DNA of 64,000 bases from Psilocybe cubensis (Eukaryota). A program made the position numbers and the translations under genes. The notes below the pieces were generated by a model. The model searched no databases, was not told where the DNA came from, and worked only from the letters and a program-made list of their open reading frames with translations. The DNA lies in contig CM039010.1 in NCBI GenBank assembly GCA_017499595.2, positions 1,054,001-1,118,000 of the forward strand, read 5' to 3'. Positions 40,466 through 47,495 of the stretch are shown here, one piece after another. Position 1 is the first letter of the stretch. Every line of letters begins with the position of its first letter.

Positions 40466-41900
40466 ATGGCTCACCAAAATGCGCCAGCGAAGCCCGCGTC
40501 CAAGTCGCTTGTCGTGCGTCCAAAATATTCATCCATCATCATCGTCGCTGTGCTGATCTGAATGACTTCCAGATGGGCGTTGTTGCCTTTTATCTCGTCG
40601 CTGCACTGGCGGTGAGTATCTACCTCGGGCTATCCATATTTATGTACTCAACACTCTTTTGTGCAGATGGTTATGGCGTATGTATCCCTGTGGATTCCCA
40701 CTGTGCGAAGTGTTGAATAATAGCGTGTTTGCAGCAACAAATGGGTCCTTAATACCACAGCGACCCCTCTTTTCTTCTTATGGGCCCAGCTTGCTATTGC
40801 AGCTGGCCTGTTCATGGTCTCCGATGCCCTGCGTTTACTGCCAGACAGACTCACCCTCGACCTTGAGACCTCTAAGGGGCTCATTCCCATGGTTGGCTTG
40901 AATGTATTTGGCCTTAGGTATGTCCATTCATGATAAAGATAACAATCGCTCGCAGCTCTGACGACCCTCCTCCAGCTTCAGCAATTATACCCTCAAATAC
41001 GTCGACGCCTCATTCTACCAGGTCGCGCGCGGCATGGTCTTGCCCTTCACCGTCCTCATGTCCTTTTTCTTCTTGCACTCCCGTCCCTCGCTCAATATCC
41101 TTCTCTGCTGCGGTGTAGTCACCCTTGGATTCTTCATTGGGGTTTTCCTCGACGGTACCCCTCTCTCCATGGTCGGCGTTAGTTTCGGTGTTGCCAGTTC
41201 CGCCATCACCGCCGTGCACTCGGTCGTTATCAAGCAGAGCCTCAACGTCGTCGGTGGCAGCGCACTCGCACTGTCATGGTACACTAACCTGCTCAGCGCC
41301 ATTGTGCTCGCACCGCTGCTCATTCTGGCTGGCGAGGGCATGGACGTTATGAAACTGCTCTTCGGTGTCAACGAGCTCGTCACTGAGCCCGGCACGATGT
41401 CCCCTCTCGCCACATTCATGTGGGGATCAGCTATCACCGTAAGCCTAACCGCTTCCTTTACGCTCCACTAATCATCTAACTAACTCATTAATCTCGCATA
41501 TAGGGCGTCCTTGGTTTCCTGATGAGCATTGCGAGCTTGATGTCGATCAAAGTGACTTCCCCGATCACCCATATGGTATCTTCTGCCGTCCGAGGCGTCG
41601 CTGCGTCCTTGTTGGGTGTGTGGCTGTTCCACGATATTATTACCACGTACGTCCGCCCGGTTTTTTCGCGATTTATATACCGTACTTATGTTTATGTGTA
41701 TCCTCTTATCGCGGTATAATTATAACAGTGGTCGCGCATCCTCGATCGCTATCATCCTCCTCGGTTCCGGGTTGTACACCTGGGTGAAGCACCAGGAATC
41801 ATCGCCTGGCTCTTCAACACCTTCCAAGCGCCCCTCGTACGAGCGTGTTAGGATGGAAGACGTCGAGGCCGGAGAGAAAGACTTCAAAACCAAGGAGTAA
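40466..41900 (+). CDS. Nucleotide-sugar transporter, GDP-fucose transporter (SLC35C1)-like, TPT/DMT superfamily
   Basis: VVAFYLVAALAMVMANKWVL, PLFFLWAQ, FSNYTLKYVDASFYQVARGMVLPFTV, SIKVTSPITHMVSSAVRG, GSGLYTWVK. Confidence 0.85.
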
Positions 41901-42407
41901 ATTAAACAGACCAACTATCTTCTTACCCACATCACAGGAACTATTAGATAACAGATCCTGCGCTGTCTGTCCTGCCCATACATATGCATATGTTGCCGCG
42001 TTCCGCATGTGCCAGATATTATTTGGATATGTACGATTACCTTGAGGATAACCCGCATGCGATTATAGAGAGTAGGTAGATAGAGCGTCGCTAGTAGAGT
42101 ATTCATATTTGTATAATTCGAGCACATCGTGAACATGGATGTTATTTAACTTACACCCACGCGACCATCAACGATAGATTGCATTAAGTATCTTCAATTG
42201 AACGAGTCTGAGCAGGCTTAAGGTGGCTGGTCGCAAGGTGATATAAAAGATTGATGACAGTTCGACAAAAAATACAGTTGTTTTTAATTTAGATCCGCTC
42301 ATTACTTTATCGTCCGGATGCCGATGTCTAAGGGAACTTGTCGTCCGTTTCGTTGCTCTCAATTCCAATGTATGCATGTATGTGTCTTATCAGTATCAGA
42401 GTTGTCA

Positions 42408-43756
42408 CTATTGCGCTTTGATCTGCGGCAGACTAGTTCCACGCCCTGATCTCTCGAGATTGCCGTCTTTTAATTCATACGCCGGACGATAGCGCGGCGG
42501 GGGTTTTGGCGTCGACTCGCCTGATAAAGACAAAAATGAGGACGATGACGATACCGGGGAAAGCGAACCGTTGGACAGAGCCGGTGTGGTTGCCGTGGGA
42601 GGGGAGAACGATGGACTGCTAGAAACAAGAGAAGACGACTGCGATTCGTCGCCATTCTGCGCAGGCGTGGGTAAGTAATCCAAGGGAGCGGATGTGGTGA
42701 CAGGTGGGGGAGGAGATGCTGGTGGTGGAGTGAGGATTGAGGAAGCTGTTAGTGGTGTATCTGTCGGTGGCGTAGGTTGGGACTGGGAGACTAAGAGTGC
42801 GGGATTCGGGAATGTGTTGAATGTAGATCCTAAGGAGGTATACCTGAATTCGACAGCTGAGATAGAGCTTTGATGTAAATGATAGGTAAAGGGAACATAC
42901 CCTTCATCGTATAAAGAGCAGTATGGCACATTGAAGTGCCGTAGGAACTCCCAGACGTTGGTGTATGACCAGTTGATGATGGGGTTTACACGTTCGAATT
43001 CGGGCCAGCCTGGGTCGGTCATGTTTCGATGCGACAATTTCGCTGGAAAAGGGCATTGTAAAGCTTAAACATTTGGAGAGGTGTAATAGATGACTCACCT
43101 CCGTGTGGATCCGTTCTCCGCGTGCCGACGAGGATTGCAGTGATGTGGGGGAACATCTCCTTGTACATCTCGAGCGCTTCGCGCATTCCTGCGCCGCCCT
43201 TTGCTTTCCCTACGGGTTTGGGTGTTTCGATGTAACCAGTGCCGTTGGGTTGTGGCGCTGGTGTGACGACACTTTCGACCTGGCCTGCGTCTGGTTTCGA
43301 GGAGAATAGGTCGAGGTTGTAGAGCTTGGCTGCCTCCTCGATGAAGTCTTCCAGTACTTGGAAAGGTGATGGCACGGGAATATATATCGAGTGTATAGGT
43401 TTCAGTGTTTCGTTGTCTTTGAGTCTGCGCGCAAGAGCGCCTGCGTACAGGTGCAGTAGAACGGTGCCTATTACGTTGATGAGGAAAAATGAGTTGGCCG
43501 TAGTTGGATGAAGCAAAACACGGTGATCGGAGCTCACAGTCCTTGCCACCATTAAAACTCAAAGAGACTTTGTCTGGCCTTCGGAGATCCTGGTTATTTT
43601 TCTGTGTGTTTGGAATGGTTGACTGAGGACCCACCCATGGGTGTCCAGGCATTGGTCGATGACCTCCAGGGCCTCCTTGACCAAAGATGGCAGCGAATCA
43701 GATCCCTCTTGCTGCGCGAAGGTGTAGACGTCATTGGCTATCTTTCTGAAGTCCAT
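42408..43756 (-). CDS. FAD1: FAD synthetase (PAPS-reductase-like FMN adenylyltransferase)
   Basis: SLSFNGGKDCTVLLHL, GTRRTDPHG, TDPGWPEFERVNPIINWSY, YCSLYDEGYTSLGS...PNPAL, YRPAYEL...ERSGR. An S/P/T-rich insert precedes the last motif. Confidence 0.95.
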
Positions 43757-45590: not shown

Positions 45591-45986
45591 AGCTTGAGGC
45601 TTAGCTTGATACCTGGATAGAATACCCAATGTAATTTCAATGGACTAGGGCATTTGTGACATACATGCTATTTGGGACGTTTGTACAATCTTATGGCCGA
45701 TGTCAGAGTGGTGTCCAGTGTTGCTCTATTGCCTCGGGGTCAATAGTTAGGCACCGGCTAGATAAATCACAGCTAAATGGAGATGAAGAAGATATGATGT
45801 TTAGAAGAAATCGGATATCCATCGTTGATTCAAAGAGCGAGTTGGCTACAGCACCTACATATACGCCGTCCTTGAAAGCGCTAGCATCCTGTCTCTAGAA
45901 GGCTAGGTTATCTAATCCAATTTCTGTTAGACCGCCCTATAAATTCCAATCGTCCTGCCTCCATTGCTTCTTGATCTCCAACCATC

Positions 45987-47495
45987 ATGTCTGTCGTCGA
46001 TCTTGTTCCCCCCTTTGCCCAGCTCAATCTCCCCCCTGTTGAAGAGTACCAGAAGCGCAAAGTCGCGTTAATTTCTGGTCAGTTCCTCTGTATTGTCATT
46101 CGTGAAGTCCCCTCACTCTTCGTCTGCTAGGTATCACCGGCCAGGACGGGTCCTACTTGTGAGTTGCACGCAAACAGGGGGAGCGCTCGTCGCGTCCCAA
46201 TGGGGCCAGACAAGAGCCGTGTCTCACATTTTTCGGTATCACAGAACAGAGCTGTTGCTGGAGAAGGGGTATCAAGTGCATGGCATTATCCGTCGCTCGT
46301 CGAGTTTCAACACCGGGCGGCTTCACCATCTTTACGAGGATCAGCATGAGCGTGCGTTTTGCGTCTGGTCTTGTGTGATGCTCTACTGACGCGCATATAT
46401 GCACAGGACCTACCCGATTTAAGCTCCATTACGGAGATCTGAGCGACAGCACGAATCTGGTGTACATCATCGCGCAGGTGCAGCCCACTGAGGTATACAA
46501 CCTGGGAGCCCAGTCTCACGTCAAGGTCTCGTTCGAGATGGCGGAGTACACTGGCGATGTGGACGGCCTAGGTACACTCCGTCTGCTCGACGCGATTAGG
46601 ACATGTGGATTGGAGAAACACGTCAAGTTCTATCAGGCGTCGACGTCTGAGCTGTACGGCAAGGTCGTCGAAACTCCACAGAGCGAGACGACGCCATTCT
46701 ACCCCCGATCGCCGTATGGCTGCGCCAAGCTATATGCGTATTGGATTGTTGTCAACTATCGTGAGGCATACGGGATGTTTGCGTGCAATGGGATTCTGTT
46801 CAACCATGAGAGTCCTCGTCGGGGACGGACGTTTGTGACGCGGAAGATTACGAGGGCCGCCGCGGAGATTTCATTGGGAAAACAGTCATGTTTGTACCTT
46901 GGAAACATCGACGCTCGGCGTGATTGGGGCCATGGTGAGTCTAATTTACTCCATGATAGGATTTAACGGTGTCTTAACATTCATGTTTCTATATGGGTAG
47001 CTCGTGACTACGTGGAGGGCATGTGGATGATGCTCCAACAACCCACTGCAGAAGACTTTGTGCTCGCTACTGGGGAAACCCACCCCGTTCGCGAGTTTGT
47101 GGAAAAGTCTTTCAAGGTCGTTGGGATTACGCTAAAGTTTGCACCATTCCGTCCCTCAAACGAGTTGCCATCATTAATTAATATTGATCCCTAGATGGGA
47201 AGGTCACGGCGTTGATGAACAAGGAATTGACGTTAAGACTGGAAAGGCTGTTGTAAAAGTCGATCCAAAATACTTCAGACCTGCCGAAGTCGAGTGAGTG
47301 TCCCGTATGGTATGATGCGATTGTTTCGTATCATTGACCGCATATGGCGCGAATTTTAGTCTTCTTCTGGGCAACCCAGCTAAGGCTGAACGGATCCTTG
47401 GATGGAAACGACGCATAGACTTTGATACCCTTGTCAAGGAAATGGTCGAGGCAGATCTCAAGGCTGCTGCAAGTCTTGTCGAGGACCAAAATTGA
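45987..47495 (+). CDS. GMD: GDP-mannose 4,6-dehydratase
   Basis: [95 protein letters not shown]. Confidence 0.98.

What the first reader, a model, noticed from the sequence alone, without database searches (positions are those of the whole stretch)
40466..47495. Compact fungal GDP-L-fucose cluster: dehydratase, synthase and nucleotide-sugar transporter within 7 kb
Seen: a GDP-fucose-type transporter (40466-41900), GDP-L-fucose synthase (44079-45590) and GDP-mannose 4,6-dehydratase (45987-47495), all on the + strand, with only FAD1 between them; synthase and dehydratase are about 400 bp apart. Established: GMD plus GFUS is the complete de novo route from GDP-mannose to GDP-fucose, SLC35C-type transporters carry it into the Golgi, these genes are unlinked in humans, budding yeast lacks the pathway, and mushroom-forming fungi make fucose-containing polysaccharides. 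Inference: a selected metabolic cluster supplying fucose for wall or exopolysaccharide synthesis. All three genes are intron-rich, which argues against a recent bacterial operon transfer. I saw no fucosyltransferase in the window, and I cannot tell whether this linkage is already published.
Basis: partly seen in the sequence, partly recalled or inferred. Interest (0 to 1): 0.85.

Follow-up and report, generated by a model that had tools for sequence, protein, structure and literature searches.

The report
Mushroom GDP-fucose genes sit together
In the mushroom Psilocybe cubensis the two enzymes that make GDP-fucose and a likely Golgi transporter for it lie within 7 kb and are all expressed, but comparison with related fungi suggests an inherited gene neighbourhood that often breaks up rather than a clearly selected gene cluster.

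Summary
Hand-built gene models give an SLC35C-like transporter (40466-41900, 352 aa, 6 introns), GDP-L-fucose synthase (44079-45590, 330 aa, 9 introns) and GDP-mannose 4,6-dehydratase (45987-47495, 374 aa, 6 introns). All are on the + strand, and FAD1 lies between them on the - strand. Spliced contigs from public runs confirm the introns. The window is Psilocybe cubensis.

In 80 related metagenome loci (54 lineages), the transporter's constant neighbour is MRE11, head-to-head in 27 of 28 informative lineages. The fucose synthase lies within 10 kb in 5 of 18, always with FAD1 in between. Where the synthase is present with enough flank, the dehydratase is next to it (5 of 5), though inverted in two. 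Locus tags of named genomes show the tight arrangement in 12 species, and looser or broken linkage in others that keep all three genes.

So this is a compact five-gene block, MRE11-transporter-FAD1-synthase-dehydratase, old within the Agaricales and repeatedly broken. The synthase-dehydratase pair is more persistent, but I could not compare it with a genome-wide null. Seven literature searches found no report of the linkage. Interest is modest.

The parts
38002..40131 (-). MRE11-like gene (conserved part; its 3' end lies further left and was not modelled). It is head-to-head with the transporter.
   Evidence: Pfam Mre11_DNA_bind 2.9e-24 on 38284-38649. PDB MRE11 chains at 3e-12 for exon 39576-39941. 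tblastn hits in 39-45 of the 80 loci.
40132..40465 (.). Spacer of about 330 bp between the divergent MRE11 and transporter genes; presumed bidirectional promoter.
   Evidence: Coordinates. The same head-to-head pair occurs in 27 of 28 informative lineages. The promoter function is inferred.
40466..41900 (+). SLC35C/TPT-type nucleotide-sugar transporter (NST), 352 aa, 7 exons including an 11-nt micro-exon at 40667-40677.
   Evidence: Model; identical to P0001. All introns seen in spliced contigs. Pfam TPT 64 bits. AF2 model pLDDT 86.4, matching Vrg4, SLC35B1 and TPT folds at TM about 0.7.
42151..43867 (-). FAD1-like FAD synthetase gene, unrelated to the pathway, tail-to-tail with NST and head-to-head with GFS. 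The ends are approximate.
   Evidence: Pfam PAPS_reduct 7.2e-12. PDB FAD synthase 8rom 5.4e-16 and yeast 2wsi 1.4e-11. Spliced contigs run from 42151/42224.
44028..44077 (+). 50-nt intron in the 5'UTR of the fucose synthase gene.
   Evidence: GT..AG joint 44027>44078 in X1 and X2 contigs.
44079..45590 (+). GDP-L-fucose synthase (GFS; GFUS/GER type), 330 aa, 10 coding exons.
   Evidence: Model; all 9 coding introns seen. Exon hits to human GFS at 2e-30. Pfam Epimerase on two exons. 89% identical to P0244, which matches human GFS at 8.9e-130.
45591..45986 (.). 396-bp spacer between GFS and GMD (tandem, same strand).
   Evidence: In relatives GMD keeps this position but is inverted in two lineages.
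45987..47495 (+). GDP-mannose 4,6-dehydratase (GMD), 374 aa, 7 exons.
   Evidence: Model; identical to P0121. PF16363 at 524.6 bits, full length. Naegleria GMD 5uzh 3.8e-162, human 1t2a 1.4e-160.

Best explanation
The locus holds three real, separately transcribed Psilocybe cubensis genes. GMD dehydrates GDP-mannose to GDP-4-keto-6-deoxymannose, and GFS epimerises and reduces that to GDP-L-fucose in the cytosol. These two steps follow from family membership and are not assayed here. The SLC35C/TPT-type transporter most likely exchanges GDP-fucose for GMP across the Golgi membrane, which is inferred.

Their closeness is best read as part of a compact five-gene block, MRE11(-) NST(+) FAD1(-) GFS(+) GMD(+). 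Its spacers are only about 250-500 bp, and two of them are head-to-head promoter regions. The block is old within the Agaricales and probably older. It survives where no breakpoint has fallen in it, and it has been broken many times without loss of the genes. The GFS-GMD pair holds together longest. Selection for clustering of the transporter with the enzymes is not shown, and the one test available goes against it.
For: Gene identity and expression.

Block structure in relatives: 12 loci from 9 lineages show NST-FAD1-GFS in the same order and orientation, with GMD and MRE11 wherever the flank reaches.

Conservation ranking over 54 lineages clustered at 97% nucleotide identity:
- MRE11 next to NST: 27 of 28
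- FAD1: 9 of 25
- GFS: 5 of 18
- GMD: 5 of 17
- the gene left of MRE11 (35157-36464): 2 of 16
- the MFS gene right of GMD: 0 of 5
At 90% clustering the figures are 18/19, 8/18, 4/13, 4/12, 2/10 and 0/4.

Where GFS and GMD are missing, the downstream neighbours of NST are unrelated housekeeping genes: ribosomal L1, SUZ, M20 peptidase, UGD, SNF5, Hikeshi, MIF4G and Dus.

Named genomes, from locus tags and equal contig lengths:
- NST within 6 gene numbers of GFS or GMD in 12 species: Galerina, Tricholomella, Candolleomyces aberdarensis, Asterophora, Tephrocybe, Amanita muscaria, A. phalloides, A. brunnescens, Coprinellus aureogranulatus, Collybiopsis confluens, C. luxurians, Serpula lacrymans.
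- Loose on one scaffold in 5: Stygiomarasmius, A. inopinata, Lentinula edodes, Gelatoporia, Mycena pura.
- On different scaffolds in 8: Crepidotus, Infundibulicybe, Crucibulum, Phanerochaete sordida, Pilatotrama, Trametes punicea, Leucoagaricus SymC.cos, Grifola.
- GMD and GFS share a contig in 12 of 15 species and have adjacent numbers in 5 of them. That includes Infundibulicybe, where NST is elsewhere; Crucibulum also keeps GMD and GFS on one scaffold with NST elsewhere.

On a FastTree of NST the linked/unlinked state changes at least 9 times.
Against: The block is better kept than both of its outer flanks (2 of 16 and 0 of 5), so some constraint on it cannot be excluded.

GMD stays beside GFS even after being inverted (L005, L006, L008). 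The pair also moves together when NST is left behind (Infundibulicybe, Crucibulum). Both would fit selection on the pair.

The metagenome lineages are an uneven sample: one unnamed clade and Leucoagaricus-like fungi supply most of the unlinked cases.

Equal 'longest_contig' values and neighbouring protein numbers are proxies for position, not coordinates.

No genome-wide null could be built.
Confidence: 0.55

Rival explanations
1. Selected pathway pair, possibly trio. Natural selection keeps GFS next to GMD, and less strictly the transporter near them, so that one chromatin neighbourhood co-regulates GDP-fucose supply for wall or secreted fucose-containing polysaccharides.
For: GFS-GMD are adjacent in 5 of 5 metagenome lineages with enough flank, despite two inversions. 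They share a contig in 12 of 15 named species. The pair stays together where NST has moved (Infundibulicybe, Crucibulum). The tight trio occurs in 12 named species, including a member of the Boletales. The outer flanks are less conserved than the block. An independent eukaryotic GDP-fucose cluster was noted in Naegleria (earlier findings e1-648238 and e1-644555; not checked by me).
Against: An unrelated essential-type gene, FAD1, sits inside the block and is kept exactly as often as GFS. GMD and GFS lie on different scaffolds in Heliocybe, Neolentinus and Marasmius sp. AFHP31. No 7-mer shared by the three promoters beats shuffled controls: best minimum fraction 0.33, null maximum 0.33.
Confidence: 0.3
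2. The transporter carries a different nucleotide sugar (for example GDP-mannose or a UDP-sugar), so its position near the fucose enzymes has no functional meaning.
For: Substrate cannot be read from sequence in this family. The fold model is equally distant (13-18% identity) from Vrg4, SLC35B1, TPT and the CMP-sialic acid transporter. The Atlas names are generic. Its most constant neighbour is MRE11, not a fucose gene. I could not place it against named SLC35C1, SLC35C2 or GFT1 sequences (searches did not complete).
Against: Sources name close relatives (68-82% identical over the query exon) 'GDP-fucose transporter C1' or 'solute carrier family 35 (GDP-fucose transporter), member C1' (P0018, P0023, P0035, P0037, P0056, P0108, P0113), and 'GDP-fucose transporter 1' (P0060, P0064, P0070, P0080). 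These are automatic names. Ebert et al. 2016 (PMC5279874, whole text read) report that the top BLAST matches from Mortierella and the basidiomycete Scleroderma group with characterised animal GDP-fucose transporters. phmmer finds no PDB chain at E up to 10, although the PDB library holds Vrg4 chains, so it is not a close Vrg4 relative.
Confidence: 0.15
3. The genes came recently from a bacterial gmd-fcl operon.
For: gmd and fcl are adjacent in many bacteria. The GMD exon scores almost as well against E. coli GMD (4.4e-88) as against human GMD.
Against: There are 6 and 9 spliceosomal introns, confirmed by spliced contigs. The GFS exon matches human at 2e-30 against E. coli at 2.4e-6. The best full-length GMD matches are Naegleria and human. 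Base composition is like the rest of the window. Orthologues occur across Agaricomycetes.
Confidence: 0.01

Closest known systems
Animal de novo GDP-fucose pathway with SLC35C1 (GMDS, GFUS/TSTA3, SLC35C1)
   Same: The same two enzymes, with very high similarity: GMD against human at 1.4e-160, and a GFS relative against human at 8.9e-130. The transporter is of the same broad TPT/SLC35C kind.
   Different: In humans the three genes are on different chromosomes (recalled, not tested here). Here they lie within 7 kb. Orthology of the transporter to SLC35C1 was not tested directly.
Fungal primary-metabolism gene clusters such as yeast GAL and DAL (recalled)
   Same: Non-homologous genes of one pathway lie side by side in a fungal genome, each with its own promoter.
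   Different: Here an unrelated gene (FAD1) is interleaved. Co-regulation is not shown. The linkage of the transporter is less conserved than that of an unrelated neighbour.
Naegleria gruberi GDP-fucose / fucosyltransferase cluster (earlier findings e1-648238 and e1-644555; AI notes, unchecked)
   Same: A eukaryotic, intron-bearing, native linkage of GMD with the fucose synthase.
   Different: The Naegleria block adds GMPP and two GT10 fucosyltransferases and no transporter. The Psilocybe block has a transporter and no transferase.
Bacterial gmd-fcl operons in colanic-acid and O-antigen loci (recalled)
   Same: The same two enzymatic steps encoded by adjacent genes.
   Different: Bacterial genes are co-transcribed and intron-less. 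Here each gene gives its own spliced contig, and the GFS is of the eukaryotic type.
Surveys of fucose and nucleotide-sugar genes in fungi (PMC10481521, IMA Fungus 2023; PMC8092308, mBio 2021)
   Same: Both report GMD, GFS and 2.A.7.16-type transporters in Basidiomycota, so the presence of the genes is already known.
   Different: In the passages found by word search neither mentions linkage of these genes: 'synten' and 'adjacent' occur 0 times in each; 'coloc' and 'co-loc' 0 times in PMC10481521, and 'gene cluster' 0 times in PMC8092308; 'neighbo' refers to fucosyltransferases only. The three supplement files held for PMC10481521 have no 'neighbo'.

Membership tests
GDP-mannose 4,6-dehydratase (EC 4.2.1.47, Pfam PF16363) | Full-length match to the family profile above its curated cut-off | tested here: met
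   P0121, identical to the window model, scores 524.6 bits against a cut-off of 27 over profile positions 1-332 of 332.
GDP-mannose 4,6-dehydratase (EC 4.2.1.47, Pfam PF16363) | Cofactor and catalytic motifs of the extended SDR type (Gly-rich NADP loop, Thr/Glu, Tyr-x3-Lys; the roles are recalled) | tested here: met
   [17 protein letters not shown] and SPYGCAKLY align residue for residue with the Naegleria fowleri GMD chain 5uzh.
GDP-mannose 4,6-dehydratase (EC 4.2.1.47, Pfam PF16363) | Converts GDP-mannose to GDP-4-keto-6-deoxymannose | not testable with these tools
   Needs an enzyme assay.
GDP-L-fucose synthase (EC 1.1.1.271; GFUS/GER/Fcl) | Close similarity to solved GDP-fucose synthases rather than to other SDR epimerases | tested here: met
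   All 15 PDB hits of exon 44518-44730 are GDP-fucose synthases, with human at 2e-30. P0244, 89% identical to the window model, matches human at 8.9e-130 over 321 residues.
GDP-L-fucose synthase (EC 1.1.1.271; GFUS/GER/Fcl) | Ser/Cys, Tyr-x3-Lys and His catalytic positions (the roles are recalled) | tested here: met
   The window translation has [14 protein letters not shown] and GPHDNF. The same strings in P0244 align with human LSTCIFPD, YSYAKR and GPHDNF.
SLC35C1-type GDP-fucose transporter (TC 2.A.7.16) | Ten-helix DMT / nucleotide-sugar-transporter fold and TPT profile | tested here: met
   Pfam TPT scores 64 bits against a cut-off of 30 over 8-290 of 291. The AF2 model has pLDDT 86.4 and pTM 0.80. 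Foldseek: Vrg4 9s36 2e-08, SLC35B1 9i20 5e-08, TPT 5y78 1.3e-07, TMq 0.68-0.71.
SLC35C1-type GDP-fucose transporter (TC 2.A.7.16) | Groups with characterised GDP-fucose transporters rather than with SLC35C2, GFT1 or Vrg4 | tested here: inconclusive
   A tree of 71 unnamed representatives was made, but none could be named: searches did not complete. Indirect evidence: the sources' automatic names, the published tree with Scleroderma and Mortierella (PMC5279874), and no sequence hit to any PDB chain, although the PDB library holds Vrg4 chains.
SLC35C1-type GDP-fucose transporter (TC 2.A.7.16) | GDP-fucose/GMP antiport | not testable with these tools
   Needs a transport assay.
Selected eukaryotic metabolic gene cluster | Two or more non-homologous genes of one pathway physically adjacent | tested here: met
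   GFS and GMD are 396 bp apart, and NST is 2.2 kb upstream of GFS.
Selected eukaryotic metabolic gene cluster | Linkage conserved beyond that of unrelated neighbours | tested here: not met
   For the transporter: MRE11 in 27 of 28 lineages against GFS in 5 of 18 and GMD in 5 of 17, with FAD1 kept as often as GFS. For the GFS-GMD pair alone the result is inconclusive: 5 of 5 lineages and 12 of 15 species, with no null.
Selected eukaryotic metabolic gene cluster | Co-regulation of the members | tested here: inconclusive
   All three genes give spliced contigs in X1 and X2, but contig depth cannot rank genes. No shared promoter 7-mer exceeds shuffled controls.

The most novel reading that the evidence does not exclude
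The fucose synthase-dehydratase pair, with the Golgi transporter loosely tethered to it, is a selectively maintained primary-metabolism cluster of mushroom-forming fungi. That would make it the first fungal nucleotide-sugar cluster to include its own organelle transporter. It would be kept together for co-ordinated supply of GDP-fucose during wall or fruiting-body polysaccharide synthesis. In that reading the near-universal head-to-head MRE11-transporter promoter is a second, unexplained layer of constraint.
Probability: 0.2. Interest if true: 0.55.

Novelty: new member of a known kind. Interest (0 to 1): 0.3.

Why it matters
If the linkage were shown to be selected, it would add a nucleotide-sugar pathway, with its transporter, to the short list of primary-metabolism gene clusters in fungi. 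It would also give a simple genomic marker for fucose-containing mushroom polysaccharides. As the evidence stands, the practical value is smaller. It provides verified gene models, including an 11-nt micro-exon, for the whole GDP-fucose supply route of P. cubensis. It gives a candidate fungal GDP-fucose transporter for assay; PMC10481521 states that none has been verified experimentally in fungi. It also gives a clear example of how a tidy-looking pathway cluster can be an inherited compact block that also contains unrelated genes.

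Tried and rejected
- Whole genome of the window: none is held.
- RNA runs: no listed holder is on record as RNA. X1 and X2 are only guessed to be RNA, although their contigs are spliced. 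Contig depth was not used to rank expression.
- PDB by sequence for the transporter: no meaningful hit for the exon (best E 1.4) and none for the full protein.
- ESM Atlas for P0001: only generic names. Two further Atlas queries did not complete.
- Searching the full metagenome contigs beyond 10 kb for GMD: the records are not held. GFS or GMD lying 10-200 kb from NST in the unlinked lineages therefore cannot be excluded. In named genomes NST and GMD have equal contig lengths in 25 of 31 species, and NST and GFS in 19 of 24. I left Trametes sanguinea out as ambiguous and counted Panaeolus cyanescens as different contigs of a fragmented assembly.
- Shared promoter motif: the best 7-mer, ATTTCAA, occurs in 4 of 8 NST, 4 of 12 GFS and 3 of 6 GMD promoters, no better than 100 shuffles.
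- Earlier findings of this scan: nothing on this genome or on the transporter. The GMD look-alikes listed were bacterial, phage or giant-virus.
- Fucosyltransferase in the window: none found, but 155 of the 265 short ORFs were not scanned, and several large ORFs have no Pfam family.
- Literature: seven searches found no report of the linkage. Only listings and abstracts were seen for most papers. Passages or whole text were read for PMC10481521, PMC8092308 and PMC5279874. Word searches of PMC3234268 and PMC10282164 gave 0 occurrences.
- Bacterial-transfer reading: rejected (see rival explanations).

Full report
WHAT IS THERE. The window is eukaryotic, with about 46% G+C throughout, and comes from Psilocybe cubensis. 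The transporter exon and the dehydratase exon each have a 100% identical database protein named for that species (P0001; P0121). I built spliced models by hand. The transporter (NST) runs 40466-41900 in 7 exons and gives 352 aa. GDP-L-fucose synthase (GFS) runs 44079-45590 in 10 coding exons and gives 330 aa. GDP-mannose 4,6-dehydratase (GMD) runs 45987-47495 in 7 exons and gives 374 aa. All introns are GT..AG and 47-86 nt long. The NST and GMD models are letter-for-letter P0001 and P0121.

EXPRESSION AND SPLICING. Contigs of two public runs (X1, X2) are spliced exactly as modelled. They show all NST introns, including an 11-nt micro-exon (40667-40677) that appears as 11 letters between two joints. 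They show all nine GFS coding introns and an extra 50-nt intron in the GFS 5'UTR (44028-44077). A third run (X3) is unspliced DNA. For GMD only the ends of the large exon were among the rows printed. Each gene sits on its own contig, so nothing suggests a joint transcript.

IDENTITIES. GMD is a full-length PF16363 match at 524.6 bits. Its best solved relatives are Naegleria (3.8e-162) and human (1.4e-160). GFS: all 15 PDB hits of one 71-aa exon are GDP-fucose synthases, with human at 2e-30 and E. coli at 2.4e-6. A relative 89% identical to the window model matches human GFS at 8.9e-130. The expected cofactor and catalytic strings are present; their roles are recalled. NST passes the Pfam TPT cut-off at 64 against 30 bits. 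It folds with confidence (pLDDT 86.4) into the nucleotide-sugar-transporter fold, matching Vrg4, SLC35B1, TPT and the CMP-sialic acid transporter at 13-18% identity. The gene between NST and GFS is FAD1-like and lies on the minus strand. The gene to the left is MRE11, also on the minus strand. The local order is therefore MRE11(-) NST(+) FAD1(-) GFS(+) GMD(+), with short spacers.

IS THE TRANSPORTER A GDP-FUCOSE TRANSPORTER? I could not test this directly. A full-library search gave 1382 relatives, of which the best 150 are listed, and I made a tree of 71 of them. Three kinds of indirect evidence remain. First, the sources give close relatives automatic names such as 'GDP-fucose transporter C1' or 'SLC35 (GDP-fucose transporter) member C1'. 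Second, Ebert et al. 2016 (PMC5279874, whole text read) state that the top BLAST matches from Mortierella and the basidiomycete Scleroderma group with characterised animal GDP-fucose transporters. Third, there is no detectable sequence similarity to any PDB chain, although the PDB library holds Vrg4 chains. I put about 0.8 on GDP-fucose as a substrate.

IS THE LINKAGE CONSERVED, AND MORE THAN BACKGROUND? Two data sets bear on this.

(1) Names in the three protein searches carry locus tags and contig lengths. NST lies within 6 gene numbers of GFS or GMD in 12 species. These are Galerina (3), Tricholomella (4), Candolleomyces aberdarensis (4), Asterophora (5), Tephrocybe (6), Amanita muscaria (2), A. 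phalloides (2), A. brunnescens (1), Coprinellus aureogranulatus (1, on an 8-kb contig), Collybiopsis confluens (5), C. luxurians (4) and Serpula lacrymans (6; Boletales). The linkage is loose on one scaffold in 5 species and on different scaffolds in 8. GMD and GFS share a contig in 12 of 15 species and have adjacent numbers in 5 of them. That includes Infundibulicybe, where NST is elsewhere; Crucibulum also keeps GMD and GFS on one scaffold with NST elsewhere. They lie on different scaffolds in Heliocybe, Neolentinus and Marasmius sp. AFHP31. These figures are proxies taken from identifiers, not coordinates.

(2) A scan of metagenome contigs with the NST exon gave 80 loci with up to 10 kb on each side. 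I searched them with the window's genes and grouped them into 54 lineages at 97% nucleotide identity. MRE11 is the head-to-head neighbour of NST in 27 of 28 lineages with 2.5 kb or more upstream. The exception is L024/L027, and L005 has a 7.3-kb gap. FAD1 follows NST in 9 of 25 lineages. GFS is within reach in 5 of 18 and GMD in 5 of 17. The gene left of MRE11 is kept in 2 of 16, and the MFS gene right of GMD in 0 of 5. At 90% clustering the ranking is the same. Whenever GFS is present, FAD1 lies between it and NST. GMD is beside GFS in 5 of 5 lineages, but on the opposite strand in two of them (L005, and the L002 lineage seen in L006 and L008). Lineages without the block have ordinary housekeeping genes downstream of NST. 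By best match to named proteins these lineages are Leucoagaricus-like, Tylopilus-like and an unnamed clade. On a low-resolution FastTree of NST the linked/unlinked state changes at least 9 times. Some partial rows there are misplaced, so this is only a rough figure.

READING. For the transporter that is the outcome: its linkage to MRE11 is nearly universal, and its linkage to the fucose enzymes is intermediate and indistinguishable from that of FAD1. The five genes form a tight block with little room for a harmless breakpoint, and inertia explains the pattern without special selection. The block is nevertheless better kept than both outer flanks. The GFS-GMD pair also survives inversion and relocation, so selection on the pair remains a live rival, at about 0.3. 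I found no shared promoter word above chance. Recent bacterial origin is excluded by the introns and the eukaryote-type GFS.

WHAT IS KNOWN. Surveys already list GMD, GFS, GT10/XG_FTase/O-FucT transferases and 2.A.7.16-type transporters in Agaricomycotina (PMC10481521, passages) and predict fucose in Basidiomycota (PMC8092308, passages). In the text searched neither mentions linkage of these genes, nor do the three supplement files held for the first paper. Seven literature searches found no report of the linkage. That covers only open-access text. Two earlier notes of this scan describe a GMPP-GER-GMD-fucosyltransferase cluster in Naegleria. I did not check them.

VERDICT. The genes are real, native and expressed. 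The three-gene cluster is a genuine, recurrent but frequently broken arrangement inside a five-gene block that also contains unrelated genes. Selection for clustering is not shown for the transporter and remains untested for the enzyme pair. This is a new member of a known kind and of modest interest.

Noticed in passing
window 38002-40465 with 40466-41900; loci L002-L078: MRE11 and the transporter are divergent neighbours with a spacer of a few hundred bases in 27 of 28 informative lineages. This is far more constant than any other adjacency here, and nothing functional obviously links a DNA-repair nuclease to a Golgi transporter.
   Followed up: partly
window 6741-8559 (-); L036, L039 and L041 at about 16.1-17.8 kb; L044 at 10329-11982: A UDP-glucose 6-dehydrogenase gene (Pfam UDPG_MGDP_dh N-terminal and central domains) lies 32 kb left of the transporter in P. 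cubensis. In four Leucoagaricus-like loci (three lineages) it lies about 5 kb downstream of the transporter. So a second nucleotide-sugar gene stays in the wider neighbourhood.
   Followed up: partly
window 40667-40677: An 11-nt micro-exon in the transporter gene is confirmed by spliced contigs, where it appears as 11 letters between two joints. Automatic gene callers easily miss such exons.
   Followed up: yes
window 44028-44077: A 50-nt GT..AG intron lies in the 5'UTR of the fucose synthase gene, ending one base before the ATG.
   Followed up: yes
L005 15199-16111; L006 9145-10104; L008 6246-7195: In two lineages GMD lies next to GFS but on the opposite strand (convergent). In P. cubensis, L009, L012 and L021 it is in tandem. 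This is a local inversion that kept the adjacency.
   Followed up: partly
window 44518-44730: The protein search with the GFS exon returned no 100% identical protein (best 94%, P0243), unlike NST and GMD. The P. cubensis fucose synthase may be missing or mis-modelled in public annotation.
   Followed up: no
P0242 (Panaeolus cyanescens, 609 aa): This annotated protein carries the fucose synthase at residues 283-605, behind 282 residues that match none of the three models. It is probably a fused gene model.
   Followed up: partly
L005 2431-9756: A 7.3-kb stretch separates MRE11 from the transporter in this one lineage, where the others have under 1 kb. I did not examine its content.
   Followed up: no
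window 42941-42996: Contigs of the DNA run X3 end or start here, inside FAD1, with loose ends on both sides. This may be an assembly break at a low-complexity Ser/Pro-rich coding stretch or a haplotype difference.
   Followed up: no
window 34197-34457 (+): A fungal cellulose-binding domain (CBM_1, 20.9 bits, just over its cut-off) lies at the end of the large unannotated gene region at 31.7-34.6 kb, suggesting a secreted carbohydrate-binding protein.
   Followed up: no
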